Made by a program: the position numbers and the translations under genes
In this document: piece by piece, positions 3,710 through 51,400 of the stretch
How the letters are laid out: every line of letters starts with the position of its first letter
How positions within the stretch are numbered: the stretch's first letter is position 1
The notes under the pieces: generated by a model
Databases searched by the model: none
Told to the model about the DNA's origin: nothing
What the model saw: the letters and a program-made list of their open reading frames with translations, nothing else
Virus record (IMG/VR): IMGVR_UViG_3300005842_000485
Location: 26,566-90,565 of that record
DNA length: 64,000 nt
From: a virus
Reading direction: 5' to 3' (one strand)

Positions 3710-3991
3710 TCAGCCGTAACCACGATCGGGAGGCGTGTCGGTTGGGGGTGCCGATGCCCTATTGTTCGCGCGCCACGTGGTGAGTTCGATCCAGAGCAGT
3801 CGCGTTGCACGTCCCACGTGATGAAGATGCTCCTTGACGCGAATGACGAGAAAGCGCGCGATCTCTAAGCCAAGCGCCAGTTCGTGCAGCAGGCCGAGCA
3901 GAAGTGCTACTGCGAGAACAAGGCATGCGAGGACGACGAGGATTGGGTGTGAAGTGAAGAGGTCCGAAGTCGCGATGTCGAACGTTCCCAT
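3710..3991 (-). CDS. Small membrane protein, paralog family member 1 (type I toxin-like)
   Basis: TM helix, then LGLLHEL...VKEHL...ELTTW; RBS TTGGAGCGGACT-ATG; aligns by eye with 47744-48160. Confidence 0.7.
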   Translation of the reverse strand: MGTFDIATSDLFTSHPILVVLACLVLAVALLLGLLHELALGLEIARFLVIRVKEHLHHVGRATRLLWIELTTWRANNRASAPPTDTPPDRGYG

Positions 3992-4330
3992 AGTCCGCTC
4001 CAAGCTCGCGGTGGTTTCCCACCGGGATTGTCGCGAGCAGAGCGGATCGGGACATTTGCTTCTTCCGCGATACTACAGCGGATACTTCCGGTCCCCGACC
4101 GTTACACGTTCGGTGTCACACCATAGCCTCCTGCGGCTCGCGCGCAGGAACCGAGGGCGTCACGCTCTCGGAGTCGAACTGTACCCGTGGGCGGAGGAGT
4201 GAAACCTCCGTAAGCAGGCCGTGTTCTGTGGCGAGTACAACCGAAGCATAAAGCGGGCCAGCGACAGCGCACTGATGGGAGCGGGTTTTACGATGTCAGG
4301 ACTCACCGATCGTGTGCATGCTGGGTAGGG
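3992..4330 (-). ncRNA. Structured leader RNA with RBS-sequestering stem (copy 1)
   Basis: TCCGCTC (4040-4046) pairs with RBS GAGCGGA (3994-4000), enclosing a CGGTGG-GAAA-CCACCG hairpin; several adjacent hairpins at 4065-4211. Confidence 0.6.
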
Positions 4331-4359
4331 AAAGCGCAGGCACCGGACACTCCTAGGGT

Positions 4360-5331
4360 ATGAAGAAATCAAAAGCGCTTCTCCTGGTCTTGGCCGCTGC
4401 GTTGCTCTCCACCTCACCTGTCTTCGGGTGGAATGCCAGAGGACATGAGGCGGTCGCGGCGATCGCATGGGACAACATGCAGCCGGCGACGCAAAAGAAG
4501 GTCACGGAAATCCTGAACGCGGCGAAGGCGGGGGACTGCCTGCACGAGCTCGGGACGGGATTTGATGCACGAACGTTCTTTATCAAAGCCGCGACGTGGC
4601 CCGACGTCGTCCGGCCGGGCGATAACGACACGCGGCCGTGCACGAAGTTCCATGATCGAGACGCACACTTCTTCGATCACTTTTGGTCAGGAGTCTCGGG
4701 CGGCAAGGACGACGAAGCTCCGAAGGCGCTAATCATTGTCCCCAAGAAGAGGCCTACGACGAACGCAATCGAACGGGTCTACGAGTTTCGTCCGCTGGTG
4801 GCGTGCAAGAAAACGCCGTGCTGTGGAACGCCGGCTGATCGTGCGCATGACCTCGCATGGATGCTCCATCTCGTCGGGGACATCCACCAGCCGTTGCACA
4901 ACGCGGCGCGCGTTACCACGGAACCGAAGGAGAAGGAGGGTGACCACGGAGGAAACCTCTTCCTCTTGAAGAAAGGCACGATTCCAGACAACCTCCACAG
5001 CTTCTGGGACGAGATCATCGACGAGTCCATCCCGCGAAATGGCGAAGCGGAGATGGTGTACATCAACCGGGTCATCAAGCAGATCCAAGCGGATCACCCC
5101 AAGGCATCGCTCGCGGCGCGCATGCAATCAGGGGATGTTGGCGCGTGGTCGGCAGAAGGACTCGCGACGGCGGAGCGGATGGGGTATCCGAAAGCGTTGC
5201 AGCGTGGCGAAACCCCGAGCGACGAGTATCGCAAGGCGGTATTTACGGTTGCTGACGAGGCGATTGCGCTTGGCGGCTACCGGCTCGCGGACTTGCTCGA
5301 CAACATGTTCGGTACGGCAGCGAATCCGTAG
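4360..5331 (+). CDS. S1/P1 nuclease, secreted
   Basis: Signal peptide, WNARGH, AATWPD, HLVGDIHQPLH, GGN, NLHSFWD, GGYRLA motifs. Confidence 0.95.
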   Translation: MKKSKALLLVLAAALLSTSPVFGWNARGHEAVAAIAWDNMQPATQKKVTEILNAAKAGDCLHELGTGFDARTFFIKAATWPDVVRPGDNDTRPCTKFHDRDAHFFDHFWSGVSGGKDDEAPKALIIVPKKRPTTNAIERVYEFRPLVACKKTPCCGTPADRAHDLAWMLHLVGDIHQPLHNAARVTTEPKEKEGDHGGNLFLLKKGTIPDNLHSFWDEIIDESIPRNGEAEMVYINRVIKQIQADHPKASLAARMQSGDVGAWSAEGLATAERMGYPKALQRGETPSDEYRKAVFTVADEAIALGGYRLADLLDNMFGTAANP

Positions 5332-5342
5332 GCTGCCACCAG

Positions 5343-5609
5343 TCAGCGCGCAGCGTTATGGCCGGCAGGGGACAGGGCCGCTCGCGCCCGAGCTACATCC
5401 GCAAGCGTGACCTCGGTAACAGTGCCATCGGTAGCTTTCACGCGAATCGGAGCAATGTCGGCACGGAATGGTGGCTCTAGCTGCGCGATGGCGTCACAGA
5501 CGGCAACGAATGGGCGTAGCGCTTCGTCCTTCCGTTCGATCTCTTGTTCAAGCTTGGAAATACGGTCATCCAAATACCGTAACTCGATCTCATATGCGGT
5601 TTCACTCAC
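5343..5609 (-). CDS. Phage hypothetical protein
   Basis: Last gene of the overlapping minus-strand small-gene operon; EALRPF motif common in small phage ORFs. Confidence 0.6.
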   Translation of the reverse strand: MSETAYEIELRYLDDRISKLEQEIERKDEALRPFVAVCDAIAQLEPPFRADIAPIRVKATDGTVTEVTLADVARARAALSPAGHNAAR

Positions 5610-5874
5610 TTAGCTGTTGTGTAGGTAGTGAGAAGACGCTATAAGGATTCCGAGCAGCAAGCATGTCGGCGGCACCGTGTGTGATGCCCGTGCTTTCCTC
5701 TGCGATCTGGACGCACCGGTGGTAGCCCTGTTCCATCGCGTCACGGATCACAACCGTAAGGTTCTCCACAGCGATTTCACTTAGGTCATCCACAACGTTG
5801 CAATAGTAGTCCGCGTACTCTTCTGGTGTATGACAATCCGCGAGCGTCCGTGGTGTCTCTGATGGTTCAGTCAT
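5602..5874 (-). CDS. Phage hypothetical protein
   Basis: Translationally coupled ORF in the operon. Confidence 0.55.
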   Translation of the reverse strand: MTEPSETPRTLADCHTPEEYADYYCNVVDDLSEIAVENLTVVIRDAMEQGYHRCVQIAEESTGITHGAADMLAARNPYSVFSLPTQQLSE

Positions 5875-5953
5875 GGCGATGTAAATATAAGAATTGTTGT
5901 TACGATGGCGGCGGTGGCCAGAGCGACAATGTAGAGGACGTATTCTCTATTGG

Positions 5954-6226
5954 TCATGCTGCTTCTTCGGGAGGAGGAGAGGGGGGAAGGTCGCGCACTT
6001 TGTCTCCTTGGGGTGGGAATGCATCACTCGTCCATGCCGCATAAGCCATGCGCCAGTACCGCTCCGCTGTGTCACGCACTCGTGGCTCATCTTCCGCTAG
6101 GCGGGCAATCTCCTTCGCGTCATAGACGATGCCGTGCAAGTGCCAGTAGAGGCGCGTCGCCTCTTCCCTCGCCTTCCTGATCTCCTCGGCACAATCGTTA
6201 CAGTCCTTATGTTCCTCATGCGACAT
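5954..6226 (-). CDS. Phage hypothetical protein
   Basis: MSHEEHKDCNDC start just after the HNH gene stop. Confidence 0.5.
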   Translation of the reverse strand: MSHEEHKDCNDCAEEIRKAREEATRLYWHLHGIVYDAKEIARLAEDEPRVRDTAERYWRMAYAAWTSDAFPPQGDKVRDLPPSPPPEEAA

Positions 6227-6230
6227 CGGC

Positions 6231-6698
6231 TCAGTGGTTAGTGATCTGATTAAGCTTCGCGAACTCACCGTGAACCTTGCTGGCGAAGACGTTGTAGGAG
6301 AGTGCCGCCGCATCCTCCGTGTTGTGGTACTCCGTGATACGGCCATACGGCGTACGAATCTGCATCCTCCATTTCCCGCGCTTCGTCGGACTCACCCCGA
6401 GATGCCGGGACGCCCCACGTAGCTTTCGCCTATTCGCGTTGTTCTGCGCCAGCGTTGCCACGCGGAGGTTCGACCTTTGGTTGTTTAGACCGTTGCCGTC
6501 GATATGGTCTGTGAACATTCCAGATGGCGGCGGCAAGACCTCGCGGTGCATGTGGACGCGCTTCCCGCCTGCCACGCGGCGAGCATAGAACGTCCGATCC
6601 CTGTTCTTTTCAGCGAACCACTTGTAAGCAGAAAGACGTTCGTAACCAGCGTCGTCTACGAACGCGAACATATCCTGAGTTAGCGGGATGAGCATCAT
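6231..6698 (-). CDS. HNH homing endonuclease with AP2-like C-terminal DNA-binding domain
   Basis: IPLTQ..FAFVDD, MHREV, DHIDGNGLNNQRSNLR...QNNAN, GVS...KW, AALSYN...HGEFA.LN. Confidence 0.92.
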   Translation of the reverse strand: MMLIPLTQDMFAFVDDAGYERLSAYKWFAEKNRDRTFYARRVAGGKRVHMHREVLPPPSGMFTDHIDGNGLNNQRSNLRVATLAQNNANRRKLRGASRHLGVSPTKRGKWRMQIRTPYGRITEYHNTEDAAALSYNVFASKVHGEFAKLNQITNH

Positions 6699-6937
6699 GT
6701 GGAGCGGCGTTCAATGCGGATACCATCCTCAGCTTGTAACACCTCGTTTCTCAGCTTCTCAACCTCCTCCTGGTGCTCCTGCTCACGGTGATCGATGATC
6801 GAAAGTAGGAAGAGCATCTCGCGCCCGAGGTCAGCCAGAGATTCTTTCGGGGAGGTAGTAAGGTCAGCGGCGATGTCACGCAGCGCAGTAATCCGGTCTT
6901 GTTCTTTGGGGGTGGTGTCGTTACTTGGCATCAGCAA
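6695..6937 (-). CDS. Phage hypothetical protein
   Basis: Coupled ORF (ATGA overlap with the HNH gene). Confidence 0.5.
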   Translation of the reverse strand: MLMPSNDTTPKEQDRITALRDIAADLTTSPKESLADLGREMLFLLSIIDHREQEHQEEVEKLRNEVLQAEDGIRIERRST

Positions 6938-7223
6938 CAGAGTTATCTTTACAGTAGATGGCTCCTATAACTTGGTTCTCGATGTCCGTGCGGCTCTTAG
7001 AGAGATCGCTTATCGCCAAACGAGCGATGGAACGCACGAGTGTTCTGTCATCTGCGTCTCGTATCTCGCGAAGTGCTTCAAGTGCCCGGACGACTTTGAG
7101 GGGAGCAATCCAGCAATCTTCACAAACTCCCGTCTTAGCCTCCTCCGTGTGCCACGCCGCATATGGCTTGTCATATGCGCATATCAGACATGAGCCGTGT
7201 GGCAGCGTTAAACCTTCAGGCAT
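6921..7223 (-). CDS. Phage hypothetical protein with CxxC pairs
   Basis: CLIC...CEDC; C-rich leader. Confidence 0.5.
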   Translation of the reverse strand: MPEGLTLPHGSCLICAYDKPYAAWHTEEAKTGVCEDCWIAPLKVVRALEALREIRDADDRTLVRSIARLAISDLSKSRTDIENQVIGAIYCKDNSVADAK

Positions 7224-7500
7224 CGGAGGGTGGGTTAGTGGTAGTGATGGCGGCGAGGGCGTCACGGATGATCGTCTCCATGCAGACGTGGCCTTGATCT
7301 TTGGGACAGACGCCTTGTGGAGCGTAGCGACGCAAAGATCGTAGTGCCTTCTCTGCAATGGCGAGCTTGCGGCGGTCTTCCTGAATCGTGGCGAGGAAAC
7401 GCAGCGGGTCGATAGTCACTGCCCCAAGCTCTAGCTGAGTAAGGATTACCTCAATCCGGTCTAGCTCCTCGTCCGTGTACGGCTTCACTTCATTGCTCAT
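7216..7500 (-). CDS. Phage hypothetical protein
   Basis: Coupled ORF with ACCACTCCCC-ATG leader. Confidence 0.55.
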   Translation of the reverse strand: MSNEVKPYTDEELDRIEVILTQLELGAVTIDPLRFLATIQEDRRKLAIAEKALRSLRRYAPQGVCPKDQGHVCMETIIRDALAAITTTNPPSDA

Positions 7501-8152
7501 GGGGAGTGGTCAGGAAGAAGTTGAAGAGGGCCGATACCGCCTGGATATCAGCGTTGTGTTTTGAGGCGTCATTGTCTTCGAGCGGCCAAAGTAAACCATC
7601 CTCAAAGTCTTGCCGATCGGCTACATCGACGTGCGGATACTTCCCTGTGGCATACGTGTAGAGGCGTGGCTCAAAACGACCATTCTGAATAGCGACTCCC
7701 CACACGTGGTCGCCGCCCTGCGGCTCCCAGCCGTTTCGGTTGATGAGTGCCTGTACCGCCCTATTCACGAGCGGTTCTACCTTGAGACGGAGTTCTGCGT
7801 CTTCCTTGATGCGGTAAGCGCCACAGTTTGCAAACAGCCGCGCGTCTATGTCTCCGGGCGTGTGGGTATCTTGCGATGGCCTATCACGGTCGAACGGACT
7901 GACAAAGAAGAAGTGCTCATTGTTTGCTGGCTCCCACGGGTACGGGCGCTCTGGCTCGTCAGGGATGGGGGCGAACCACTCCGGGTTGTTTTCCACTGGA
8001 TACGCCAGTTGGCGACACTCGCAGTCCCTCCCTCCTTCAAGCCAGTACGCAACGTACACACCATTATCAACACGGGAAGGCTCAAAGATTTTGCCTGTTC
8101 CAGCAGCCGGGCATCCAGGGAGGTCTTTGAGGAGACGAAACTTCTTAGGCAT
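7490..8152 (-). CDS. Phage hypothetical protein (FRLLKDLP...PEWF...WEP type)
   Basis: Starts MPKKFRLLKDLPG; resembles a recurrent uncharacterised phage family (from memory, unverified). Confidence 0.6.
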   Translation of the reverse strand: MPKKFRLLKDLPGCPAAGTGKIFEPSRVDNGVYVAYWLEGGRDCECRQLAYPVENNPEWFAPIPDEPERPYPWEPANNEHFFFVSPFDRDRPSQDTHTPGDIDARLFANCGAYRIKEDAELRLKVEPLVNRAVQALINRNGWEPQGGDHVWGVAIQNGRFEPRLYTYATGKYPHVDVADRQDFEDGLLWPLEDNDASKHNADIQAVSALFNFFLTTPHEQ

Positions 8153-8384
8153 TTCTATGAGGGTTACATTCGGCCAAGACGAAAACATCCGATTTACTCA
8201 AACCGAGATATTCTTTGACGTAGTCTGCCGCTTCGTCCCATCCCTGCGCGAGTGCTTCTTTCTTCACACGGCGCAATACATTCCGGATAACCCTAGGATA
8301 AATAGCAGAGTTCCGTTGGTTGTAGAGGCTCGCAACAAGTTGATCCTCTGCTCTACGCTCTTCTGGTGTAATCGTCTGCGACAT
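8145..8384 (-). CDS. Phage hypothetical protein
   Basis: C-rich leader, coupled ORF. Confidence 0.55.
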   Translation of the reverse strand: MSQTITPEERRAEDQLVASLYNQRNSAIYPRVIRNVLRRVKKEALAQGWDEAADYVKEYLGLSKSDVFVLAECNPHRNA

Positions 8385-8396
8385 AGGGGCCGGTGG

Positions 8397-8675
8397 TTAG
8401 TTTGCGCGACCAATGATCTCGACGTTGGGCATGCACCCTTCATCGTCCGTGCGGCCCATGATATGGGTAGAGCATTCATAGCCGCTCTGGTGCTCCCAGT
8501 TGTACTCCCAGCCCCAGCCGCCGAGTTCACGGCGGACAACGAATGTACCGGTGCGCTCGCCTGTCGGACTATGCGGGTAATCGTTGCTGGCATCGACGCG
8601 CAGAATGTCACCTACTGTGATCTCGATACCGTTCTTGTCGTAGAGGCCCGTGCTATTCACGCTCTCCTGTGACAT
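8397..8675 (-). CDS. YopX family phage protein
   Basis: STGLYDKNGIEITVGDIL...VEIIG signature. Confidence 0.85.
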   Translation of the reverse strand: MSQESVNSTGLYDKNGIEITVGDILRVDASNDYPHSPTGERTGTFVVRRELGGWGWEYNWEHQSGYECSTHIMGRTDDEGCMPNVEIIGRAN

Positions 8676-8689
8676 AGGGGGATGGGTGG

Positions 8690-8917
8690 TTAGGAGATTG
8701 CCTGTGCCGCGATCCGCCGATTGATCTGGTTCATGCGCTCGATGGTGGCGACGTGTTTAGCGCACTCCTCTACGAGTTCCTGCTTCTCTCGCTGGAACTG
8801 ACGGATGACCTCGCAGAGCCACCGAACATCAGGGTTGCCGAGATCTGCGTCGTTGTGTTGCGCCCAAAACTCGATCCGTTCGAGGCGAGTCTCGATGTGT
8901 TCTGGTGCTGGTTCCAT
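8690..8917 (-). CDS. Phage hypothetical protein
   Basis: DVRWLCEVI followed by coiled coil; leader CACCTCCACCTCCC-ATG. Confidence 0.55.
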   Translation of the reverse strand: MEPAPEHIETRLERIEFWAQHNDADLGNPDVRWLCEVIRQFQREKQELVEECAKHVATIERMNQINRRIAAQAIS

Positions 8918-8931
8918 GGGAGGTGGAGGTG

Positions 8932-9084
8932 TTAGCCGCGCGACCACCCGCCGCCAACAAGGACGACGATGCCGGCAATGAGCGCGAGGACGCCGAGGAA
9001 GATCGACGGCACGGAGATATGGAATAGCTCGATGCATCCAATGAGGATGAGGTAGAGCCCGAGGGTGAGATTGGAGAGCGACAT
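8932..9084 (-). CDS. Small two-TM membrane peptide (50 aa, MSLSNLTLGLYLILIGCIELFHISVPSIFLGVLALIAGIVVLVGGGWSRG)
   Basis: Hand-translated; fills the gap in the operon; below the ORF track cutoff. Confidence 0.65.
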   Translation of the reverse strand: MSLSNLTLGLYLILIGCIELFHISVPSIFLGVLALIAGIVVLVGGGWSRG

Positions 9085-9096
9085 AGTGTGGAGCGG

Positions 9097-9354
9097 TTAG
9101 GATGACGACGGGATGGGCATGCCGGCTCGAGCGAGTTTCATCCGCACCGCCTCTCGGTAGCTCGTGCCTTCAGGGAGGAAGTAGAGCGTCGAGGTCGTGG
9201 CTATCGGCGGACGCGGATTCGGGGCGTCGCTTCCTGGGTAGCGCACTTCACAGGCGTCTTCCGTCACTGCGTCCCCGATCTCGACGAGATCATTGCTGCG
9301 GGTCAGGGCGTAGCGTGGCTCCGGTGTGTCGTCGGGGGTCTCACGCAGCGGCAT
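9097..9354 (-). CDS. Phage hypothetical protein
   Basis: MPLRETPDD start coupled to the upstream ORF. Confidence 0.5.
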   Translation of the reverse strand: MPLRETPDDTPEPRYALTRSNDLVEIGDAVTEDACEVRYPGSDAPNPRPPIATTSTLYFLPEGTSYREAVRMKLARAGMPIPSSS

Positions 9355-9550
9355 CTTCGTCGATGGGAAGGATGCCGCGCTCTTGGAGGGCCTTGAGGAG
9401 AAGGCCTGGGAAGATGGCTCGATGCGAGATATGGCGGCTATCGGCCTCGCGGTAGCTCTGTTCTCGGAGATTGCAGTATTCATCCAATGGGATGTACTTC
9501 AATGCGAGGTCGTAGATGTCCGCGTTCGTGAGGGTGCCTACGGTCGTCAC
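9341..9550 (-). CDS. Phage hypothetical protein
   Basis: GTG start overlapping the upstream stop (GTGA). Confidence 0.5.
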   Translation of the reverse strand: MTTVGTLTNADIYDLALKYIPLDEYCNLREQSYREADSRHISHRAIFPGLLLKALQERGILPIDEDAAA

Positions 9551-9903
9551 AGCAGCGCGTGTGAAAACGAGACCTGGTGGCCGGGGCATGACACGGGACA
9601 GGGGCCGGAGAGATCGCAGGGTGACCGGCGACCCGTGGTGCGAAACTGCGGAACGGCGCGCGAAATGGCACCCTGCCAAGACTTCGGCACATCCTCCCAC
9701 GCGACTGTCGGACAGTCATCGACGAACCACGTGTTGCTCGCCGCTGGCGAGGTGGCGATACGGGGACGTTCTGAAATCCCCGAGACTGCATTGAAGATGA
9801 CCGGGTTGCCACGGACATCTTGGAGGCCGGTATCGACAAAGTATTGCTCGTAGCCAGGCAGGGAGTTCTTCGTATACCGACGGATGGTGTAGCGGGGCGT
9901 CAT
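9547..9903 (-). CDS. Phage hypothetical protein, first gene of the left early operon
   Basis: ATG at 9903 downstream of early promoter cassette P1. Confidence 0.55.
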   Translation of the reverse strand: MTPRYTIRRYTKNSLPGYEQYFVDTGLQDVRGNPVIFNAVSGISERPRIATSPAASNTWFVDDCPTVAWEDVPKSWQGAISRAVPQFRTTGRRSPCDLSGPCPVSCPGHQVSFSHALL

Positions 9904-9994
9904 TTGTGTTGAGGGTGAGGAGGTGAAGAACAATCTAAGACTACGCCTCTCCTACTGGATGTCCAGAGTGCTTATGCACGACTTATCCACAAAA
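9904..9994 (-). promoter_or_regulatory. Early promoter cassette P1 with tandem DnaA-like boxes
   Basis: TGTGGATAA-gt-CGTGCATAA, TGGACA-N16-TAGTCT, leader TTCTTCACCTCCT. Confidence 0.65.
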
Positions 9995-10004
9995 TAGAGC
10001 GTCG

Positions 10005-10208
10005 TTAGTGGACGGTTTCTCGTCGGACGGGAAGCGCGGCGCGTGGCTTTGCCCCGCAGTTTGAGCACGGCGTATCCAGCCAGCGTTCGTAGGCCGCATC
10101 GTCTTCCTGATCGGTCATGTCAGATGTAAACCAGAGCGGGATGCTGTGACCGCAGGCGGCGCAGTAGGCAGAAGCGCACCCGCCGTGGACGGGGTCAGGT
10201 GAAGCCAT
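10005..10208 (-). CDS. Small zinc-ribbon protein
   Basis: CAACG...CSNCG. Confidence 0.5.
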   Translation of the reverse strand: MASPDPVHGGCASAYCAACGHSIPLWFTSDMTDQEDDAAYERWLDTPCSNCGAKPRAALPVRRETVH

Positions 10209-10249
10209 AGCGGTATGATAGATGGATCACCGGAAAGAAGGAGTCACGC

Positions 10250-10777
10250 ATGCCGCGTTCACGGAAGCCGGGAACGACCGCCGCCGAGATACGTCCGGGA
10301 CAAGCCAGCTATGTGCTGGATCGGCTCATCAAGGACAAGCGCATCACGCCGTACGACATCCAGCGCTACGTCGCGGACATGGGGAAGGAGATCGACGAAC
10401 TCCAACGCCGACTTGATTCCTTGCGCACGGCGCATGCTCCCCAAGGGGTGCGTCGCGAACTCCCGCCGCCACCACCACCAACGCCACGCAAGCGCCGGCG
10501 TCGTCGTGCTCCGCTGCGCGCTGGGAGCGTCGTGCCGCCAGCAAGTTTGCCGGAGCGTCCGACACCCCCGGAACCACGAAAAGAGAAACAACCGCCATCG
10601 AAGAAGCCAGCTATGGGCGTGAGCGCTGAAACACTGGCCTCCCGGCAGCTCCAAGGTCGGTATTTGGCGCTCATCCGGCAGATTCCCGCACAGAAGCGCG
10701 CGCAGTACGCGAAGACAGCGAAGGAGAAGGGTCGCGAGGCGGCGATCAAGGAGATGCGTAATGCGCGTCGGAAGTAA
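10250..10777 (+). CDS. Basic hypothetical protein, possibly nucleic-acid binding
   Basis: Strong SD AAGGAG; coiled coil, Arg/Pro linker, C-terminal SRQLQGRYLALIRQIP...GREAAIKEM. Confidence 0.75.
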   Translation: MPRSRKPGTTAAEIRPGQASYVLDRLIKDKRITPYDIQRYVADMGKEIDELQRRLDSLRTAHAPQGVRRELPPPPPPTPRKRRRRRAPLRAGSVVPPASLPERPTPPEPRKEKQPPSKKPAMGVSAETLASRQLQGRYLALIRQIPAQKRAQYAKTAKEKGREAAIKEMRNARRK

Positions 10778-41580: not shown

Positions 41581-41584
41581 TGAG

Positions 41585-44868: not shown

Positions 44869-44895
44869 GCTGAAGCGGCGAGCTTCGGCAGAAAA

Positions 44896-45807: not shown

Positions 45808-46088
45808 TACTCTGGCGTTTCTATATCATCGTCATCCAAGATGAACCGGTGTCCGGCTTCGGATGTCTCCGCTGGTGTCAGTTCAATGAGCTTGACGTTC
45901 TGGCCGACGGCGTACTTACGGTGGCAAGCAACACACTCAAAGTTGTAAAAGAAGGCTGCGTCGATGTGTGAATGATGTCCGCAGACGCAGTGGACATCCA
46001 TACAGACATCGGTGCCTTTCCACTGAATCCACCCGCCCGTAGCTGTGGGAGGGTTGTCGCGTTCGTAAACCTGTTTGTAGTAGTCCAT
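45807..46088 (-). CDS. Small Cys-rich phage protein
   Basis: WIQWKGTDVCMDVHCVCG...CVAC. Confidence 0.7.
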   Translation of the reverse strand: MDYYKQVYERDNPPTATGGWIQWKGTDVCMDVHCVCGHHSHIDAAFFYNFECVACHRKYAVGQNVKLIELTPAETSEAGHRFILDDDDIETPE

Positions 46089-46100
46089 GAAACGCGGTGG

Positions 46101-47408
46101 CTATATGGCTTGCTTTGAATCGAGGAGTTGCGACAGCGGGGACTCGCCGAGGAACTTCGCGTCGCGGCCGTAGAACAGCACGCGGTCATCAACGAAGAAC
46201 ACGAGGACGCCGAGCTTGGCGAAGTCGGCGTACCAGTGCGCGACTTCGATTCCAGCGACCTTTGCGATTTCGAGGTAGAACAAGCAGTCGGTCTGCCAGT
46301 CGTACTGGTAACAGAGTTCGCTCCGGAGTTTGCTCCGGAGTTTGCTCCAGAGTTTGCTCCGGAGTTTGCTCCGGAGTTTGCTCCAGAGTTTGCTCCGGAG
46401 TTTGCTCCAGAGTTCGCTCCCGAGTTCGCTCCCGAGTTCGCTCCGGAGTTCGCTCCGGAGTTCGCTCCGGAGTTTGCTCCGGAGTTTGCTCCAGAGTTCG
46501 CTCCCGAGTTTGCTCCCGAGTTCGCTCCCGAGTTTGCTCCCGAGTTCGCTGGCCGTGGGTAGATCGGTCGCGTGAACGATCAGCCGATGGTCGGCCTTAT
46601 AGGAATCGGTGCTTGCGAGCAGTTGCTTGCCGCGCGGCCCCCACGCGACAGAGACGGGAAGCTCGGCAACGGTGCGGAGCCGTGAGACGCGCACCTTATC
46701 GTCGCCCATGCCGCAGCGGTCTTCTTGTTCGTAGGTGCAAAAGAACACGCGATCGGGAACGTTGTAGTTCCCGGCGCCGGCGAGGGTGTGTCCGAGGTGG
46801 AGACCAGTGCCACACTCGCTGCCATCCTTCTCCGCGGCCGGCTCCTGCGTGACCTTCCCGACACGGTACAGGGCATGTTTGCCGGTGTCGCGGGAAGTGG
46901 CGAAGCTCTGTCCCTTGGCGTCGGTGTACTTGAAGCCGTACCTGATGCCCTGCCATTCGCAAAGCGCGACAAGGAGCAGCCATACGAAGTCGTCTTCATC
47001 GAGGCCGCCGATACCAGTCCCAAGTCCAGAAAGGAGGAGCGTTTCGCCGGGGTTGATGCTCTTGAGCGCGAAGGCGAGCGCGCCCGCAACGAGCGGGCGC
47101 GAGGAGCGCAGCGATGCATCAACGGTGACGGTAAAGATGATGTCGTCGATACGCTGATTACCGGCTTCCCGGTCAATCCGCGCACATACATCCGGATAGC
47201 GATGGGCGATCTGTGCGTCGAGGCCGCCGCCCATGGTGAAATTGGGGTTGGACGCAGAAGCAATGACGCCTTCGAAGGAGAAGATGTCCCCGGTTTTCGT
47301 CTCAACCGGGACATCGAGAGGAAGGTATTTGAGCGCCTTGGAAACCTTGGCGATGAGAGATCGGTTGCGATCAATGACGAGAATACGGGGTTGTTTGTTC
47401 CGGGGCAC
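46101..47408 (-). CDS. Macrodomain + phage domain + tetrapeptide-repeat protein
   Basis: GDIF...IASASNPNFTMGGGLDAQI...GLGTGIGGL (macro); GFKYTD...YRVG...ECGTGLH; 20x S(E/K)L(G/R/W/C). Confidence 0.8.
   Translation of the reverse strand: MPRNKQPRILVIDRNRSLIAKVSKALKYLPLDVPVETKTGDIFSFEGVIASASNPNFTMGGGLDAQIAHRYPDVCARIDREAGNQRIDDIIFTVTVDASLRSSRPLVAGALAFALKSINPGETLLLSGLGTGIGGLDEDDFVWLLLVALCEWQGIRYGFKYTDAKGQSFATSRDTGKHALYRVGKVTQEPAAEKDGSECGTGLHLGHTLAGAGNYNVPDRVFFCTYEQEDRCGMGDDKVRVSRLRTVAELPVSVAWGPRGKQLLASTDSYKADHRLIVHATDLPTASELGSKLGSELGSKLGSELWSKLRSKLRSELRSELRSELGSELGSELWSKLRSKLWSKLRSKLRSKLWSKLRSKLRSELCYQYDWQTDCLFYLEIAKVAGIEVAHWYADFAKLGVLVFFVDDRVLFYGRDAKFLGESPLSQLLDSKQAI
46314..46550. repeat. 12-bp tandem repeat, ~20 units GAGTT(C/T)GCTCC(G/A/C)
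   Basis: Read directly; coding VNTR. Confidence 0.97.
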
Positions 47409-47567
47409 GAGTGTTGCGGTTAGGAGGTGACACCTTCACGATACCCCGGCTGCTGGACAGCGCAAGGTCAAGAGTCGCTTTTGTGGATAACTCGTGCATA
47501 GTTGACTTGTAGGCGCAGGCGACGCGGCGTACTGTAAGAGTGTCGTCACTTCCTACCAAACACCAAT
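47409..47567. promoter_or_regulatory. Divergent early promoter region P2 with tandem DnaA-like boxes
   Basis: + strand TGTGGATAA-ct-CGTGCATAG, TTGTAG-N17-TACTGT, leader TCACTTCCT; - strand TATCGT and leader TCACCTCCT. Confidence 0.65.
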
Positions 47568-47855
47568 ATGTACGATTGCGAAGCCGGATGCGGCCATGTT
47601 GAATGGATCGTCACGCTCGCGTCCTGCAAGGTCTTCTTCCTCTGCGGCGAGAAGGCGCTGCGGATGCTGACGCTCGCTGGCGAGGTCGGTTGTTCCTCGC
47701 ATATCGCGAGTCTGCGCGGTGCGGCGATGGAGCTTGCTAGCCACTACTGCGCTGAAGTCGGCATTGATGAACGCTCGGATCTTCCGCGCGACATCGAAGA
47801 CGAAAAAGTGCGGGAGTTCACAAGGCTCCATTGGCGCAACCGCGCGGCCGAGTAG
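47568..47855 (+). CDS. Phage hypothetical protein
   Basis: Directly downstream of P2 with a C/A-rich SD-less leader. Confidence 0.55.
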   Translation: MYDCEAGCGHVEWIVTLASCKVFFLCGEKALRMLTLAGEVGCSSHIASLRGAAMELASHYCAEVGIDERSDLPRDIEDEKVREFTRLHWRNRAAE

Positions 47856-48160
47856 CGCTTACGCAGCATGTTCCTTCTGCGGCCTCGAGGCTTGGGGAAA
47901 AGTACAAAGGCATGGGAGATGCGTCGGGCGCGATCCCAGGTTGTGAATGAACGCTTGATGCGACGGAGCGTCTGGCGGCCGGCGGTCAGCTCATCTTTGA
48001 TGTGGTCGAGCAAGACGACGAAGCAATCACCGAGAATCCGGAGGTCGTGAAGGACGCCGAGACCGAGGGTCAAGATGAAGAAGAGCGCGAGGATGGCTGC
48101 GGGCAGAGGATGAGCGAACGCGTGTTCAATGAGTTTGGTAAGCCATGGATGTTCGCGCAT
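47744..48160 (-). CDS. Small membrane protein, paralog family member 4
   Basis: HP...LGVLHDL...IKDEL...FTTW aligns with 3710-3991; SD GGAGGACGGAG; longer C-tail. Confidence 0.7.
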   Translation of the reverse strand: MREHPWLTKLIEHAFAHPLPAAILALFFILTLGLGVLHDLRILGDCFVVLLDHIKDELTAGRQTLRRIKRSFTTWDRARRISHAFVLFPKPRGRRRNMLRKRYSAARLRQWSLVNSRTFSSSMSRGRSERSSMPTSAQ

Positions 48161-48360
48161 GCGCTCCGTCCTCCGTTTGAGAACCTAACGAGTTGAGCGA
48201 GGCTGCGGACATCCCAAGGGCAACAACGACGAGGAGAGGGAACCCTAGGCGAACATGCGTTGCAAGCGGAGGTCGCCTGGAACTCGAAACCAAGCGGCCC
48301 GTTCCTGCAAACTTGGATGAAGAATACCACGAGAGGTATGGCTGCGCCGCATGATCGACC
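48161..48360 (-). ncRNA. Non-coding leader with anti-SD segment (copy 4)
   Basis: CTCTCCTCGTCGTT can pair with AACGGAGGACGGAG; ATGTTCGC can pair with GCGAACAT in the first codons. Confidence 0.45.
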
Positions 48361-48717
48361 CTACTCGCGGCTGGCAGGGCCCGCGTTGAGGAGCAAGAGG
48401 AAGCAGGAAAACGCAAGCAACGCAGCGGCGGCCTTCGGGCTTTCGAATGCCAGCGCTGTGAGTCCTGTGAGGTATGCGATGAGTAGTACTGCGTCACGGA
48501 TGGCAGCGCGGCGCGTCGGTATGATCGTCACGTTCTCGAAGTAGAGACCATCCAGCCCTTCGTCGAACAGCGTGAGGAGTCCGCGAGCTTCGGCATGTGA
48601 ACGCTGCATCCCTTTCGGCTCGGTAGCGGAGCGGGCATTACTGACGACCGTCACCGCTTCGTCTTTGGTGAGATACATGGTCGTGCCGTCTGGATATGTA
48701 GCGATATAGGGCTTCAT
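48361..48717 (-). CDS. Phage membrane protein
   Basis: MKPYIATYPDG start; C-terminal TM segments. Confidence 0.55.
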   Translation of the reverse strand: MKPYIATYPDGTTMYLTKDEAVTVVSNARSATEPKGMQRSHAEARGLLTLFDEGLDGLYFENVTIIPTRRAAIRDAVLLIAYLTGLTALAFESPKAAAALLAFSCFLLLLNAGPASRE

Positions 48718-48727
48718 GCGGAGGGTG

Positions 48728-49096
48728 CTAAAAGAGGGGAACTTGTATGGCGCTAGGTTTCGCCGGAGGAGTATGGGTTCCACGGATGCGGGCCGCGACT
48801 TCTGACCAGGGAATCACACCCTCTCGATCCTCGTAGCGAAGCCAAAGCCCCTTCGTTGATCCCTCGAAGATAGCGCGCTCGCGTGTGCCTCCCCACCAGC
48901 GGCAGCGGCCTCTCGCAAGGGCGATAGCGTCTGCGTCTGTTGCTGCCGCGCGGATCGCCCGTTCGATGCTGCGATGCTCGATGTTTGATGCGGCTAGTTC
49001 CACGGCCCACAGAATGTCCTCTTCGGTGAGTGGGCCACGTGACGGGCCATCAAGCAGGCGGTCACCATCGGCGTCGTCAGGCGTGTCCAGCGACAT
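48728..49096 (-). CDS. Phage hypothetical protein
   Basis: KGL......REGVIPWSEVAARI...Q.PLF. Confidence 0.55.
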   Translation of the reverse strand: MSLDTPDDADGDRLLDGPSRGPLTEEDILWAVELAASNIEHRSIERAIRAAATDADAIALARGRCRWWGGTRERAIFEGSTKGLWLRYEDREGVIPWSEVAARIRGTHTPPAKPSAIQVPLF

Positions 49097-49367
49097 GCAT
49101 GTGTGGCGTGATGGATCGAGCGAGCGTCTCTTGCGCGTCGAGGGAGAGACCGGCGTCCTTCCATCCCTGCTTTCGGCCTTGGGTGAAAGCGTCGCCCTCA
49201 AGGGCCAAGCATTCCAACAGAACGAGTTTTAGGCGTGCGACAAGGAGTGCAGCACCGTGGCCTCGCGGGGCTTGCGAAGACGCTTGCAGGTAGGCGTGCG
49301 CCTCACCTACCACGCCACGTGCATTGGCGAGCGCGTCGTCGCGGGTGCGAGTGTTGAAAGTCCGCAT
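49077..49367 (-). CDS. Phage hypothetical protein
   Basis: In operon with SD-less leader. Confidence 0.5.
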   Translation of the reverse strand: MRTFNTRTRDDALANARGVVGEAHAYLQASSQAPRGHGAALLVARLKLVLLECLALEGDAFTQGRKQGWKDAGLSLDAQETLARSITPHMHVAGHA

Positions 49368-49381
49368 GGATATGCGAGGCG

Positions 49382-49597
49382 TTATAGGAGACGTGGAGAG
49401 CGGAGAATCTGAATCTCACGGCGCTGCTGCGCGATGCGCGCGAGAAGTCTGTACGTGAGGAGAGTCGGCGGAGGCGCGGGCATTGACAGGTCATGCGAGA
49501 CCTGTGCTTTCCAGTCGGCCTCGTTGCCGAACGTGGCCTTGATATATTCGTCAGACAACGGCGTTAGAAACTCCGCCGCGTTGTCGAGGTTAGCCAC
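49382..49597 (-). CDS. Phage hypothetical protein
   Basis: In operon. Confidence 0.5.
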   Translation of the reverse strand: MANLDNAAEFLTPLSDEYIKATFGNEADWKAQVSHDLSMPAPPPTLLTYRLLARIAQQRREIQILRSPRLL

Positions 49598-49609
49598 GTG
49601 TGCTGGTGG

Positions 49610-49888
49610 TTAGCTATTGGAGAGACTAGCTGGTACGGACAAGTAATACTCCTTCGGCGCGGCCACCCAGCCGATAGGCAACTCTGTAAGGCGCAGGGTT
49701 GCAACTTGCCGTTGGAGACGTGTCACCTGTTCCTCAAGCGCCTCGATGTACGAGCTGTTGTCAGCCTGCGCGATCATCCAGCCGATTTCTCCGGTACGCG
49801 CACGGTTGGCAGACGTCCTCGTATTGTCGCGGCACTCTGCGATGCGCTTCACCAAGCCTTCGTCTGTTAGGGAGGCGATGAACTTCAT
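49610..49888 (-). CDS. Phage hypothetical protein
   Basis: In operon; coiled coil. Confidence 0.55.
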   Translation of the reverse strand: MKFIASLTDEGLVKRIAECRDNTRTSANRARTGEIGWMIAQADNSSYIEALEEQVTRLQRQVATLRLTELPIGWVAAPKEYYLSVPASLSNS

Positions 49889-49899
49889 GTTCTTTGTGG

Positions 49900-50088
49900 T
49901 TAGGTATTCGAGGACGCGAGCTTCTTCTGCTGATGCACGGCCTTGCGGTTCTCCTCACACTTCGGGCAGTTGATCCCTGTGGTATCGCCCGGCTCCGCCA
50001 GGAAGGTGTGTCCTTGCGGGCACTCCATCTGAGCGTAGATGCGAATGGTGGCGCGAGTGGTGATGACTTCGAGGGTGGGTTGCGGCAC
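49900..50088 (-). CDS. Small zinc-ribbon protein, first gene after P3
   Basis: CPQGH...CPKC; GTG at 50088. Confidence 0.55.
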   Translation of the reverse strand: MPQPTLEVITTRATIRIYAQMECPQGHTFLAEPGDTTGINCPKCEENRKAVHQQKKLASSNT

Positions 50089-50170
50089 GTGAGGCGTGGG
50101 TGAAGAACAACCTAACAATACGCCTTCCAGCGGGTACTACAAGACCACATATCCACGAGTTATGAACATT
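50089..50170 (-). promoter_or_regulatory. Early promoter cassette P3
   Basis: TGTTCATAA-ct-CGTGGATAT, TTGTAG-N16-TATTGT, TAGGTTGTTCTTCACC (near-identical to the P1 leader). Confidence 0.65.
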
Positions 50171-50188
50171 CTGATGGTGTCGAGACAC

Positions 50189-50491
50189 TCACCCGTTCGG
50201 GGCCTCCGGGGTCGTTCGTGGCTTCTCTTGCGGTGCATGCAAGGCCGCGTGGAGATCGGAAGGCCATTTGTGGAGTTCCTCAAGGACGGCCCGCAGGTGT
50301 TTGAGCATATGTACGGTGCACCGGCGCGCGAACTTCAGCACGGCACACAAAAGAACGAAGAAGAGTGCGAGCGCGTGCATCTCGGCGCAGTACCCAGCGA
50401 CGATGAGGAAGGTTGCCGCTCCCGCGTACTCAAGGGCATGAGCGACCGCTGTAAGGAAGGTAATGGTGGTGTCGATCTGCGCCGTGTCCAT
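50189..50491 (-). CDS. Small membrane protein, paralog family member 2
   Basis: H.LE.AGA..FL.VA.YC...LKFAR...EEL..W; RBS TTGGAGCGGAGCT-ATG. Confidence 0.75.
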   Translation of the reverse strand: MDTAQIDTTITFLTAVAHALEYAGAATFLIVAGYCAEMHALALFFVLLCAVLKFARRCTVHMLKHLRAVLEELHKWPSDLHAALHAPQEKPRTTPEAPNG

Positions 50492-50811
50492 AGCTCCGCT
50501 CCAAAGACCGGCACGGATAAGAGACCCGTCCGGAAGTTGGTGGGTACGAGCGGATCAAGATGGAATCGGCGAACCGATCGCCCTTAGCTGGCGCCTTCCT
50601 GCCCCCGAGAGAGCTGCGCCGCCCCCGAGGGGGTTGCCAGTAGCCATGCATCTCGCGGCATCCCACCGTAGCAGTAGCCGCACGATCCGAGACGATGATG
50701 GTTGGTTTCCGGCGTACCAGAGCACAACCGTCGTCTCGGTCAGTCGCAACCCACTACACGCGACCGACCTGCAAATCGGAATGGGCAATGGCGAGTGTTT
50801 ATTCCGAACGG
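50492..50811 (-). ncRNA. Structured leader RNA (copy 2)
   Basis: TCCGCTC (50548-50554) pairs with the RBS (50495-50501); long hairpins such as CCGAGACGATG...CGTCGTCTCGG. Confidence 0.6.
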
Positions 50812-51048
50812 TCAGGGACGCCATGCTCGCAGTTCCTCGGTGAGTCCGGCCACGGCTTGCGCGGCATGGTGGGTGCGCTCTCGGGCGAAGCGGAGCGCGT
50901 GGGTTGCGACCGTGGCGGTGAATGCAACAGCTTCTGTCAGGCCGCAGTAGATCGCGACGAGCAGGAAGAGCGTGGCTCCCGCGCGTTCGATGAGATGGAC
51001 AGCACTCCGAAGGAGGTTGAACGGGTGCGTCCGCGTCGGTTCTGCCAT
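50812..51048 (-). CDS. Small membrane protein, paralog family member 3
   Basis: H.IERAGATLFLLVAIYC...LRFAR...EELRAW; RBS TTGGAGCGGATC-ATG. Confidence 0.75.
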   Translation of the reverse strand: MAEPTRTHPFNLLRSAVHLIERAGATLFLLVAIYCGLTEAVAFTATVATHALRFARERTHHAAQAVAGLTEELRAWRP

Positions 51049-51400
51049 GATCCGCTCCAATGTCCTACCGAGCCGAAGACTCGGAGATGAATTGGCGAGT
51101 GATGAGCAGACCAGGGGTTCTACTTACATGAACAGGCCCGTAAGCCGCGGGTCAGACGCCTGTGACGCGGGCTCGCTAACGGAGGGGCGTCGCGCTGGAT
51201 GTTCCCGTCGGGCGGGTGGCGTGTTCAATGAGCTACCTGTTGCGTCGTGGGTCGCTGGCTGCCTGACCTCCGACGCGTCCTAGCGACTCCCTTTTCTCAT
51301 CAAGACGATTGAGTGTCGGTCGCTACTGTCGGCCACTCGCAGCCGACCCATGCCATATTTGGCAGCTAAGAAAAGAATACTGCAAAAGTCAGGCAAGGTG
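51049..51400 (-). ncRNA. Structured leader RNA (copy 3)
   Basis: GGTCTGCTC (51104-51112) pairs with GAGCGGATC via G-U wobbles; inner CCGAGTC-TTCG-GCTCGG hairpin; more hairpins upstream. Confidence 0.6.

What the first reader, a model, noticed from the sequence alone, without database searches (positions are those of the whole stretch)
3710..51400. Dispersed family of four small membrane proteins, each behind an RBS-sequestering structured RNA leader (candidate new type I TA-like or riboregulated system)
Seen: four minus-strand ORFs (3710-3991, 47744-48160, 50189-50491, 50812-51048; 78-138 aa) share a TM helix, an amphipathic helix and a C-terminal Trp motif (IELTTW, RSFTTW, EELHKW, EELRAW). 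They form two close pairs: HP...LG.LH(E/D)L...TTW and H..E.AGA..FL.VA.YC...L(K/R)FAR. Three use the same RBS, TTGGAGCGGA-N2/3-ATG. About 50 nt upstream each carries its complement (TCCGCTC, TCCGCTC, or GGTCTGCTC with G-U pairs), enclosing a hairpin whose sequence differs (GAAA loop, cUUCGg loop, CCGG-ACGG stem). Structure is therefore conserved where sequence is not. Each has a further 150-300 nt of hairpin-rich DNA upstream with no convincing gene. Established: SD-sequestered, highly folded mRNAs encoding membrane peptides define type I toxins such as Hok, Ldr and AapA, which are usually shorter. Inference: an unrecognised toxin/antisense, abortive-infection or timed-lysis module present in four copies.
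Basis: partly seen in the sequence, partly recalled or inferred. Interest (0 to 1): 0.85.

Follow-up and report, generated by a model that had tools for sequence, protein, structure and literature searches.

The report
Small membrane proteins behind folded leader
Four related small membrane-protein genes of a soil prophage share a conserved folded RNA leader that covers the ribosome-binding site; both the protein family and the RNA are undescribed, and nothing found here shows a toxin-antitoxin pair.

Summary
The four minus-strand ORFs are paralogs of an unnamed family of about 40 small single-pass membrane proteins. The family is under purifying selection (dN/dS 0.10 and 0.33). It occurs in 22 of 124 genomes of one Acidobacteriota family.

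Copies A, C and D carry the exact word TTGGAGCGGA before ATG. It pairs with an upstream CCGCUC, around a variable apical hairpin. The same leader precedes 12 of 25 distant homologs. On 17 leaders, 81% of cells pair against 35-48% in slid controls, and G-U outnumbers A-C 25 to 8, which points to the mRNA strand. A model built only from foreign leaders ranks A and D highest in the window.

New here: a second upstream hairpin with a covarying stem. Its conserved GCGAGU loop complements the conserved ACUCGC internal loop. It is clear in B, plausible in A, loose in D and absent in C.

Rfam, Pfam and PHROGs give no match. No recurring antisense promoter, partner gene or endolysin was found. The best reading is a new cis-acting translational gate. 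The type I toxin-antitoxin reading is unsupported but not excluded. Protein function and trigger are unknown.

The parts
3710..3991 (-). Copy A: 93-aa single-pass membrane protein of the A/B subtype (HP..TM..LG.LHE..K..ELTTW)
   Evidence: The AF2 model is one long helix, residues 16-79, pLDDT 81; the second model gives 6-80.
3986..4051 (-). A leader hairpin (HP2). Anti-SD GATCCGCTC at 4040-4048 pairs with TTGGAGCGGA at 3994-4003. Inner helix GCUCGCG:CGCGAGC. Apical hairpin GGUGG-GAAA-CCACC.
   Evidence: -40.5 kcal/mol, z -4.8; 43.9 bits, but a seed of that model; 21.7 bits, E 1.2e-3, with a model built without any window sequence.
4130..4148 (-). A upstream hairpin (HP1): stem CCUGCG:CGCAGG, loop CGCGAGC carrying GCGAG
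   Evidence: (present in the MFE fold). Not part of alignment A9, so judged by eye only.
47744..48160 (-). Copy B: 138 aa, A/B subtype with an Arg-rich C-terminal tail
48155..48208 (-). B proximal leader: CGCUCAACUCGUU ... GGAGGACGGAGCGC-AUG. This is a weak, degenerate form of HP2.
   Evidence: z +0.94; -12.6 kcal/mol; 12.6 bits, E 0.3
48275..48295 (-). B upstream hairpin HP1: GCUUGG-UUUCGAGUU-CCAGGC. The loop complements AACUCG of the proximal leader.
50189..50491 (-). Copy C: 100 aa, C/D subtype (H..E.AGA..FL.VA.YC...FAR...W)
   Evidence: dN/dS 0.33 against the L005 ortholog (0.20 for the core).
50486..50559 (-). C leader hairpin: UCCGCU:AGCGGA (P1), CCAA:UUGG (P2), apical CCGG-ACGGG hairpin. 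AUGGA also pairs with an upstream UCCAU.
   Evidence: (z -2.2). Not detected by the independent model R2.
50812..51048 (-). Copy D: 78 aa, C/D subtype
   Evidence: dN/dS 0.10 against the L005 ortholog.
51043..51115 (-). D leader hairpin: GGUCUGCUC:GAGCGGAUC (two G-U pairs), internal loop AUCACUCGCC, CCAAU:AUUGG, apical CCGAGUC-UUC-GGCUCGG
   Evidence: and 115 (18.6 bits, E 8e-3, with the independent model)
51164..51191 (-). D possible HP1 equivalent: GACGC...GCGUC stem with an 18-nt loop holding UUAGCGAGC. A loose fit.
   Evidence: By eye only.
50985..51334 (.). Stretch covered by identical contigs in two rhizosphere RNA libraries (D leader plus the first 64 nt of the D ORF)
   Evidence: X6 covers 50985-51295 and X14 covers 51184-51334. 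Strand unknown, and DNA carry-over is not excluded.

Best explanation
These are four paralogs of an undescribed family of small (about 70-140 aa) single-pass membrane proteins from one family of soil Acidobacteria and their prophages. Each gene is a stand-alone unit with its own 5' leader.

The leader is a conserved RNA element that is not in Rfam. Its proximal hairpin (HP2) pairs an upstream CCGCUC with the (U)GGAGCGG word that holds the Shine-Dalgarno GGAG, 6-7 nt before AUG. It closes over a variable apical hairpin, so the ribosome-binding site is double-stranded by default. In many members there is also an upstream hairpin (HP1), 45-100 nt further 5', with a covarying stem. It presents a conserved GCGAGU loop that is complementary to the conserved ACUCGC internal loop of HP2.

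Shown: the paralogy, the purifying selection, the conserved pairing with compensatory changes, the strand of the structure, and its specificity for this gene family.

Inferred: the hairpin keeps translation low until something opens it. Candidates are re-pairing driven by HP1, an RNase cut, or a trans-acting RNA or protein that recognises the invariant words.

Inferred more weakly (about 0.4): the product is a membrane-active protein that is harmful when over-made and serves the mobile element in conflict with the host or with other phages.
For: Protein family. The exhaustive profile search finds 43 representatives at E<=1e-3, 40 of them 66-183 aa, with shared motifs. dN/dS is 0.10 for D and 0.33 for C. 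Both AF2 models give one long helix. The family is in 22 of 124 genomes of one GTDB family. In the class sample, 18 of 401 genomes match, all from that family. In the phylum sample, 1 of 401 matches.

Leader. Exact TTGGAGCGGA occurs only at the three RBSs. The word is not a general RBS context in host-family genomes: 143 matches against 147 for the reversed control in 5 genomes. The same leader stands before 12 of 25 distinct homolog ORFs from other genomes and before the D and C orthologs in metagenome locus L005, where the apical hairpins differ in sequence.

Pair counts on 17 leaders: 81.0% of cells paired against 34.9-48.4% when slid; covariation 0.311 against 0.065-0.128; 9 of 15 pairs change on both sides; 0 of 500 shuffles reach the observed value.

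Non-Watson-Crick cells: 25 G-U against 8 A-C, as expected if the sense RNA folds.

Model R1 finds nothing else above 18 bits in the window. Its 11 strong hits in 124 genomes all precede family genes, though all are seeds. Its 6 weak hits lie in or before unrelated genes.

Model R2, built from 11 foreign leaders only, gives L005-D, A and D as its three best hits in 71.6 kb.

HP1 and the loop pairing, on 8 leaders: 88.4% of cells paired against 34-45% when slid. All 4 core HP1 stem pairs change on both sides. The loop-to-internal-loop helix is 95.8% paired, with one UA-to-AU swap in 2 sequences. GCGAG lies within 110 nt upstream in 12 of the 13 leaders that carry ACUCG, against a background of 0.20 per 110 nt.

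No Rfam match, even at E<=1.
Against: Ensemble accessibility of positions -14..+3 is only moderately low: A 0.30, B 0.36, C 0.24, D 0.35, against 0.43 +/- 0.13 for 49 other long ORFs. At least 8 of the 49 lie below 0.29, under A's value; their starts were guessed crudely.

RNAalifold on the MAFFT alignment recovers only the 5-pair P1.

P1 itself is almost invariant. Its support is complementarity plus one variant lineage (L022/L037) and G-U changes in D.

Four of the six loop-pairing base pairs never vary and so say nothing.

In L026 and L028 a separate GGAGG lies between the motif and AUG. In L021 and L038 the motif is doubled. Direct SD masking is therefore not uniform.

13 of 25 homolog ORFs have other leaders. 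C and its L005 ortholog were missed by R2.

Alignments A7 and A9 and both structures were drawn by me from these same sequences, which favours the unslid register.

No experiment or strand-specific RNA data exists. The RNA-library contigs over the D leader could be DNA carry-over, and the runs were selected with this very stretch.

Nothing bears directly on toxicity or on what opens the hairpin.
Confidence: 0.66

Rival explanations
1. Type I toxin-antitoxin modules. The small membrane proteins are toxins, their folded mRNAs are translationally inert, and an unseen antisense RNA, overlapping the leader or the 3' end, is the antitoxin.
For: SD pairing in a folded leader of a small membrane-protein gene. 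Several copies per element. Prophage locations. RNA-library contigs that cover only the D leader and stop 64 nt into the ORF could be a leader-overlapping RNA. From listings and abstract openings only: type I toxin mRNAs use SD sequestration and structural switches (PMC6733600, PMC5416894, PMC5066626, PMC13000454).
Against: 0 sigma-70-like promoters on either strand around all four copies, and terminators at chance level. In four homolog loci there are two antisense-strand promoter-like hits at unrelated positions and none in the other two loci. The distal D leader is not conserved between the window and L005. The G-U over A-C bias puts the conserved structure on the sense strand. The proteins are 66-183 aa with conserved polar motifs. 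The promoter scan is crude, and Acidobacteria promoters may differ, so this rival is weakened but not excluded.
Confidence: 0.13
2. Holins or antiholins for lysis timing. The leader hairpin would tune translation in the way the sdi stem-loop does for lambda S (recalled, not read here).
For: One TM helix plus a charged C-terminal part. The record has no recognisable lysis genes: 0 matches to PF00959, PF01510 and PF01464. C and D are a conserved tandem pair. In L021 and L025 the gene sits just upstream of the terminase genes, where lambdoid phages keep lysis genes (the placement rule is recalled).
Against: No Pfam or PHROG holin match. No endolysin domain in any neighbour examined. In L021 and L025 the gene lies on the strand opposite the flanking phage genes. 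Four dispersed copies, and copies in a chromosomal-looking setting (GGDEF sensor, peptidases, AraC) in G461, do not fit one lysis cassette. In L005 the pair lies between an S24 repressor-like gene and the integrase, which is lysogeny territory.
Confidence: 0.07
3. The hairpins are real but are not a translational gate. They could be 5' stabilisers or RNase-processing sites of the mRNA, or a heat- or cold-sensitive RNA thermometer. The proteins would be harmless small membrane regulators or stress proteins.
For: Accessibility is only moderately lower than for other genes. Some members carry a second, unmasked GGAGG. In G461 the pair is followed by a receiver-domain gene in an ordinary chromosomal region. 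The conserved cytoplasmic ELTTW motif suggests a specific protein partner.
Against: In most members the paired word holds the only SD, at ideal spacing. At -19 to -38 kcal/mol at 37 C the hairpins are far more stable than the weak, mismatched stems of ROSE or fourU thermometers (the comparison is recalled). The start codon is also paired in A, C and L005-C.
Confidence: 0.14

Closest known systems
Type I toxin mRNAs with a sequestered SD (tisB/istR-1, dinQ/agrB, aapA1/isoA1, hok/sok, timPR)
   Same: A small membrane-protein gene whose folded 5' region pairs the Shine-Dalgarno sequence. Often several copies, and often on prophages. Transcribed yet poorly translated by default. Sources: listings and abstract openings of PMC6733600, PMC5416894, PMC5066626 and PMC13000454; other details recalled.
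   Different: No antisense RNA gene was found. The proteins are two to four times longer and have conserved polar motifs. The masking is a local hairpin plus an upstream hairpin, not a 5'-3' long-distance fold. Toxicity is untested.
Lambda S holin sdi stem-loop (recalled; no paper read)
   Same: A phage small membrane protein whose translation start is governed by a stem-loop at the RBS.
   Different: No dual start, no endolysin neighbour, four dispersed copies, chromosomal copies as well.
rpoS-type leaders opened by an sRNA that pairs with the inhibitory strand (DsrA, RprA; recalled)
   Same: An upstream strand masks the SD. The near-invariant anti-SD strand plus the ACAACUCGCC loop would make a natural landing site for an activator.
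   Different: No activator was found. A 16-nt search for extra copies or complements in 5 carrier genomes gave 50 hits against 27 for the control, none convincing.
Prophage morons / lysogenic-conversion minigenes (recalled concept)
   Same: Self-contained small genes with no fixed neighbour, some on the strand opposite the flanking phage operons.
   Different: A shared, conserved structured leader across the family is not a usual moron feature.

Membership tests
Type I toxin-antitoxin system | An antisense RNA antitoxin gene overlapping or next to the toxin gene | tested here: inconclusive
   0 promoter-like sites on either strand in the window regions. No recurring antisense site in 4 homolog loci. 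The scan covers only a sigma-70 consensus, and no strand-specific RNA data was available.
Type I toxin-antitoxin system | A small hydrophobic toxin, usually under about 60 aa (size limit recalled) | tested here: not met
   78-138 aa here, and 66-183 aa for the 40 small homologs.
Type I toxin-antitoxin system | Toxin mRNA folded so that the SD is paired | tested here: met
Type I toxin-antitoxin system | Growth arrest or death on toxin expression | not testable with these tools
   Needs an expression experiment.
Holin | One or more TM domains and a charged C-terminus | tested here: met
Holin | Sits in a lysis cassette beside an endolysin | tested here: not met
   Neighbours carry no endolysin domain. 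PF00959, PF01510 and PF01464 are absent from the whole record, which is estimated 78% complete.
Holin | Match to a holin family in Pfam or PHROGs | tested here: not met
   No significant hit at E<=1.
Any Rfam RNA family | Covariance-model match | tested here: not met
   0 matches at gathering score over 64 kb. At E<=1, nothing on the leaders.
RNA thermometer (ROSE, fourU) | A weak, mismatch-bearing SD hairpin that melts near growth temperature (criterion recalled) | tested here: not met
   MFE of -18.7 to -37.9 kcal/mol at 37 C for 16 of 17 leaders; B is -12.6.
CsrA/Rsm-controlled leader | GGA motifs at the SD plus a CsrA protein in the host | tested here: not met
   GGA-GC-GGA is present, but PF02599 is found in 0 of 5 carrier genomes. 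The control rings in E. coli, B. subtilis and T. maritima.

The most novel reading that the evidence does not exclude
The two-hairpin leader (HP1 loop GCGAGU pairing with the HP2 internal loop ACUCGC, next to the masked SD) is a new class of structured, switchable cis-regulatory RNA. It would respond to a factor or a signal and co-regulate a small regulon of membrane proteins spread over the chromosomes and prophages of one Acidobacteriota family. A prophage carrying four copies would then plug its own genes into a host control circuit.
Probability: 0.25. Interest if true: 0.7.

Novelty: new variant of a known kind. Interest (0 to 1): 0.55.

Why it matters
Acidobacteria are abundant in soil, and very little of their RNA-based regulation or of their phages' accessory genes has been studied. 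This finding gives a defined RNA motif, absent from Rfam, that can be tested by mutation. It also gives an unnamed protein family, found on chromosomes and prophages, that the motif controls. One carrier, G461, has a single 5.9-Mb contig that the protein collection lists under NCBI, so a strain for bench work may exist. If the proteins prove toxic or protective, this would be a new kind of prophage-borne, translationally gated membrane effector. If not, it is still a clean new example of leader-controlled small membrane proteins.

Tried and rejected
Family and fold look-ups that gave nothing:
- Pfam and PHROGs on the four proteins.
- ESM Atlas on A: best score 0.79, which is noise level.
- Cluster names: only 'hypothetical protein', apart from one 'ArsR family regulator' label on P0010, which I take to be a mislabel.

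Searches for more DNA relatives:
- IMG/VR protein-pattern scans with A2 and A3 found no relatives.
- The GTDB contig scan with A2 found none.
- DNA-pattern scans gave 10, 2 and 1 stretches, all chance matches on inspection.
- The single metagenome scan gave only L005, L006 and a weak L007.
- So the DNA around most of the 40 homologs was never seen.

CsrA idea: rejected.

Trans-acting partner: the 16-nt search gave nothing clear.

Conserved neighbour gene: none within 1.5 kb in 25 loci.

D+C heteromer: complex prediction returned 'no answer'. It counts neither for nor against binding.

Second structure job: by my mistake it was given A5, whose first row is A again, so no model of a C/D-type protein was made.

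No fold search was run, because a single helix gives meaningless matches.

Parts of 47400-51600 without cover in the RNA runs are not evidence of silence.

The weak R1 hit at 62144-62189 (17.7 bits) was looked at and left as probable chance.

Supplementary files of papers were not consulted. No paper was read beyond the listing and the opening of its abstract.

Full report
What is there.

The window is bases 26566-90565 of a 90.5-kb IMG/VR provirus record. It has about 60% G+C, no tRNA gene and no Rfam match at gathering score.

They are A 3710-3991 (93 aa), B 47744-48160 (138 aa), C 50189-50491 (100 aa) and D 50812-51048 (78 aa).

They align without gaps from Met1 to the C-terminal Trp. Pairwise blastp, with composition correction off, gives A-B 5e-7, C-D 3e-13 and A-D 1e-7. 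A profile of the four finds only these four places in the whole record.

The proteins are real genes of an unnamed family.

Pfam and PHROGs give nothing significant. A word-indexed search found 16 proteins. An exhaustive profile search of 1.84 billion representatives found 43 at E<=1e-3. Forty of these are 66-183 aa; the other three are long proteins with repeated weak matches.

There are two subtypes:
- A/B type: HP, a TM helix, LG.LHE, a conserved Lys, then ELTTW(K/D) (alignment A6).
- C/D type: H.IE.AGA, FL.VA.YC, FAR(E)RT.H, and a terminal W.

Against their orthologs in metagenome locus L005, dN/dS is 0.10 for D and 0.33 for C, or 0.20 for the C core.

AlphaFold2 models A as one continuous helix, residues 16-79 with alignment A6 and 6-80 with A5 (pLDDT 81 and 82). 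That is an N-terminal TM segment running into a long basic amphipathic helix. By the positive-inside rule (recalled) this would lie in the cytoplasm.

The ESM Atlas gave only noise-level neighbours.

Distribution.

Using a Terriglobales MAG as centre, the A/B-type profile matched:
- 1 of 401 genomes sampled across the phylum;
- 22 of 124 genomes of that one genome's GTDB family, at 27 places with up to 3 per genome;
- 18 of 401 genomes sampled across the class, all 18 belonging to that same family.

The family was not found outside that GTDB family in the genomes searched. C/D-type genes were found only in the window and in metagenome contigs.

Context.

No gene recurs within 1.5 kb of the 25 homolog loci.
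- L021 and L025 lie between HTH and VRR-NUC-like genes and the small and large terminase genes, on the opposite strand. A 20-kb view of G041:C23 is prophage-like, with Toprim and TerL.
- In L005 the D-C tandem sits between an S24 repressor-like gene and an integrase.
- In G461 a tandem pair lies among ordinary-looking chromosomal genes (GGDEF sensor, peptidases, AraC, a receiver-domain gene).
- In the window the neighbours are an S1/P1 nuclease, methylases, a helicase fusion and an ArdC-like gene.

The proximal leader hairpin.

A, C and D have the exact word TTGGAGCGGA two or three bases before ATG. It occurs nowhere else in 64 kb. In five carrier genomes TGGAGCGG-N2-6-ATG is no more common than its reversed control (143 against 147), so it is not a general RBS context.

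Forty to fifty bases upstream lies GATCCGCTC in A and C, or GGTCTGCTC in D.

RNAfold gives the same three-tier hairpin in A, C, D and in the L005 orthologs. P1 is the anti-SD paired with AGCGGA. P2 is CCAA:UUGG, or in A GCUCGCG:CGCGAGC. P3 is an apical hairpin that differs in sequence. The z-scores are -4.8, -2.2, -1.9, -4.4 and -1.7. B does not fold this way (z +0.9).

The decisive step was reading the upstream 85 nt of the homologs from other genomes. Twelve of 25 distinct ORFs carry the same design: CCGCUC, A(C/A)AACUCG(C/U)C, a short apical hairpin (UCCUC-GAAA-GAGGG, GUCUC-GAAA-GAGAC and others), (U)GGAGCGG, 3-8 nt, AUG.

There are variants:
- L022 and L037 have UUCCGUCCA paired with UGGACGGAA.
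- L044 has GGAGAGAG.
- L021 and L038 carry the GGAGCGGAC word twice.
- L026 and L028 have an extra GGAGG after it.

The other 13 ORFs have different leaders.

Tests of the hairpin.

On a 17-leader MAFFT alignment (A7) with my P1-P3 structure:
- 81.0% of cells pair, against 34.9-48.4% when the partner column is slid.
- Covariation is 0.311 against 0.065-0.128.
- 9 of 15 pairs change on both sides.
- 0 of 500 shuffles reach the observed value.

Among non-Watson-Crick cells, G-U outnumbers A-C 25 to 8, which places the structure on the mRNA strand and not on DNA or an antisense RNA.

Model R1, built from all 17, finds only the four leaders in the window (43.9, 43.0, 41.9 and 32.7 bits) and then nothing above 17.7 bits. 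In 124 genomes its strong hits are the seeds. Its six weak hits lie inside or before unrelated genes.

Model R2 was built from the 11 foreign leaders alone. Its three best hits in window plus L005 are L005-D (24.4 bits), A (21.7) and D (18.6). B is marginal at 12.6 bits, and C and L005-C are missed.

Limits of these tests:
- RNAalifold on A7 recovers only P1.
- P1 is nearly invariant.
- Ensemble accessibility of -14..+3 is 0.24-0.36, against 0.43 +/- 0.13 for other ORFs, which is low but not extreme.
- The long spacers further upstream fold no better than shuffles.

A second, upstream hairpin.

I lined up the 110 nt before the anti-SD. This showed a hairpin, HP1, with a conserved loop U(U/A/C)GCGAGU(U/A) and a stem that changes by pairs: CCCGG:CCGGG, CUUGG:CCAAG, CCUAG:CUAGG and CGGUU:AACCG.

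The loop is the complement of the conserved ACUCGC internal loop of the proximal hairpin. That explains why those unpaired bases are conserved.

On 8 leaders (A9):
- The whole structure is 88.4% paired, against 34-45% when slid.
- All four core HP1 stem pairs show changes on both sides.
- The loop-to-loop helix is 95.8% paired, but four of its six pairs never vary. One pair swaps UA to AU in two sequences.

GCGAG lies within 110 nt upstream in 12 of the 13 leaders that have ACUCG (B has UCGAG), and in 1 of the 4 that lack it. The background is 0.20 per 110 nt.

In the window, B has a canonical HP1 at 48275-48295. A has a plausible one at 4130-4148. D has a loose one at 51164-51191. C has none. 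The tertiary pairing is therefore a well-motivated hypothesis, not a demonstrated fact.

What it is not.

- Rfam has no match at E<=1 on the leaders.
- CsrA, suggested by the GGA-GC-GGA word, is absent from 5 of 5 carrier genomes, while the control rings.
- Sigma-70-type promoter scans found nothing on either strand around the four genes, and terminators were at chance level.
- In four homolog loci there is no recurring antisense site.
- No endolysin domain lies beside any copy, and three common endolysin families are absent from the record.

Expression.

The stretch 50100-51400 occurs in rhizosphere and soil metagenomes. Two metatranscriptome runs from two studies each hold one identical contig, at 50985-51295 and 51184-51334. 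Both lie over the D leader and the first 64 nt of D.

This is a weak hint that the leader is transcribed in nature. The strand is unknown, DNA carry-over is not excluded, and the runs were chosen with this stretch.

Reading.

The best-supported account is a cis-acting translational gate. The SD, and in several copies the AUG too, is held in a stable hairpin of -19 to -38 kcal/mol. That hairpin is conserved across proteins only 20-51% identical to A. A second hairpin is placed to touch its internal loop.

What opens it is unknown. The near-invariance of both P1 strands and of the internal loop, while P3 and the HP1 stem drift freely, suggests recognition by HP1 itself, by an RNase or by a trans-acting factor.

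The protein's role is also unknown. Stand-alone genes, several copies per element, prophage sites and tight translational control fit a membrane-active accessory protein that is harmful in excess. The chromosomal copies and the conserved cytoplasmic motif fit a regulator equally well.

The type I toxin-antitoxin label rests on resemblance only. Its defining antisense partner was looked for and not found, although the tools used could have missed it.

Comparison with the literature.

This rests on search listings and the openings of abstracts only (PMC6733600, PMC5416894, PMC5066626, PMC13000454; for holins) and on recall, which is marked as such in the other fields.

No search of mine found this motif or family in print. 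The scan's own notes hold nothing like it on other DNA.

Noticed in passing
L023:1416-1506 (+) and L042:1374-1464 (+): Two other family members, one in G461 and one in G448, share a different leader: GGACCGG(U/A)GAAGCCGG(G/A)CCGAAAG, then a GC-rich hairpin, before their AUG. This may be a second leader type for the same protein family.
   Followed up: no
L005:4567-7577: In a related metagenome contig the D-C tandem pair lies between a Peptidase_S24 (CI/LexA-like) gene and a phage integrase, that is, in the lysogeny module.
   Followed up: partly
L077 (G461:C1:1719000-1738900), small genes at about 9789-10607: A tandem pair of family genes is followed after 28 nt by a gene for a 273-aa protein with a receiver domain, in a chromosomal-looking region (GGDEF sensor, M13 peptidase, AraC). 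The family is therefore not confined to prophages.
   Followed up: partly
window 62144-62189 (-): A weak match of leader model R1 (17.7 bits, E 0.01) overlapping the start of the 343-aa ORF 61121-62152. Only CCGCU...GAGCG-C-AUG is shared. Probably chance.
   Followed up: partly
whole record G000: No match to the endolysin families PF00959, PF01510 or PF01464 anywhere in the 90.5-kb provirus record (estimated 78% complete). Its lysis genes remain unidentified.
   Followed up: partly
window 47744-47930 (-): B has a 60-residue Arg/Ser-rich tail after the ELTTW-equivalent motif. Two homologs (P0022, P0033) have similar Arg-rich tails, so the tail may be real and not a lost stop codon.
   Followed up: no
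L021:1753-1826 (-) and L038:1750-1826 (-): In these two homologs the GGAGCGGAC word is duplicated 13 nt apart. The anti-SD could pair with either copy, which looks like a built-in decoy or two-state switch.
   Followed up: no
window 50489-50811 (-) against L005:6238-6558: The 320-nt D-to-C spacer keeps conserved blocks at both ends, although synonymous sites of the flanking genes are near saturation. One block is a UNCG-loop hairpin that reads UCGG-UUCG-CCGA in the window and UCGG-UACG-CCGA in L005.
   Followed up: no
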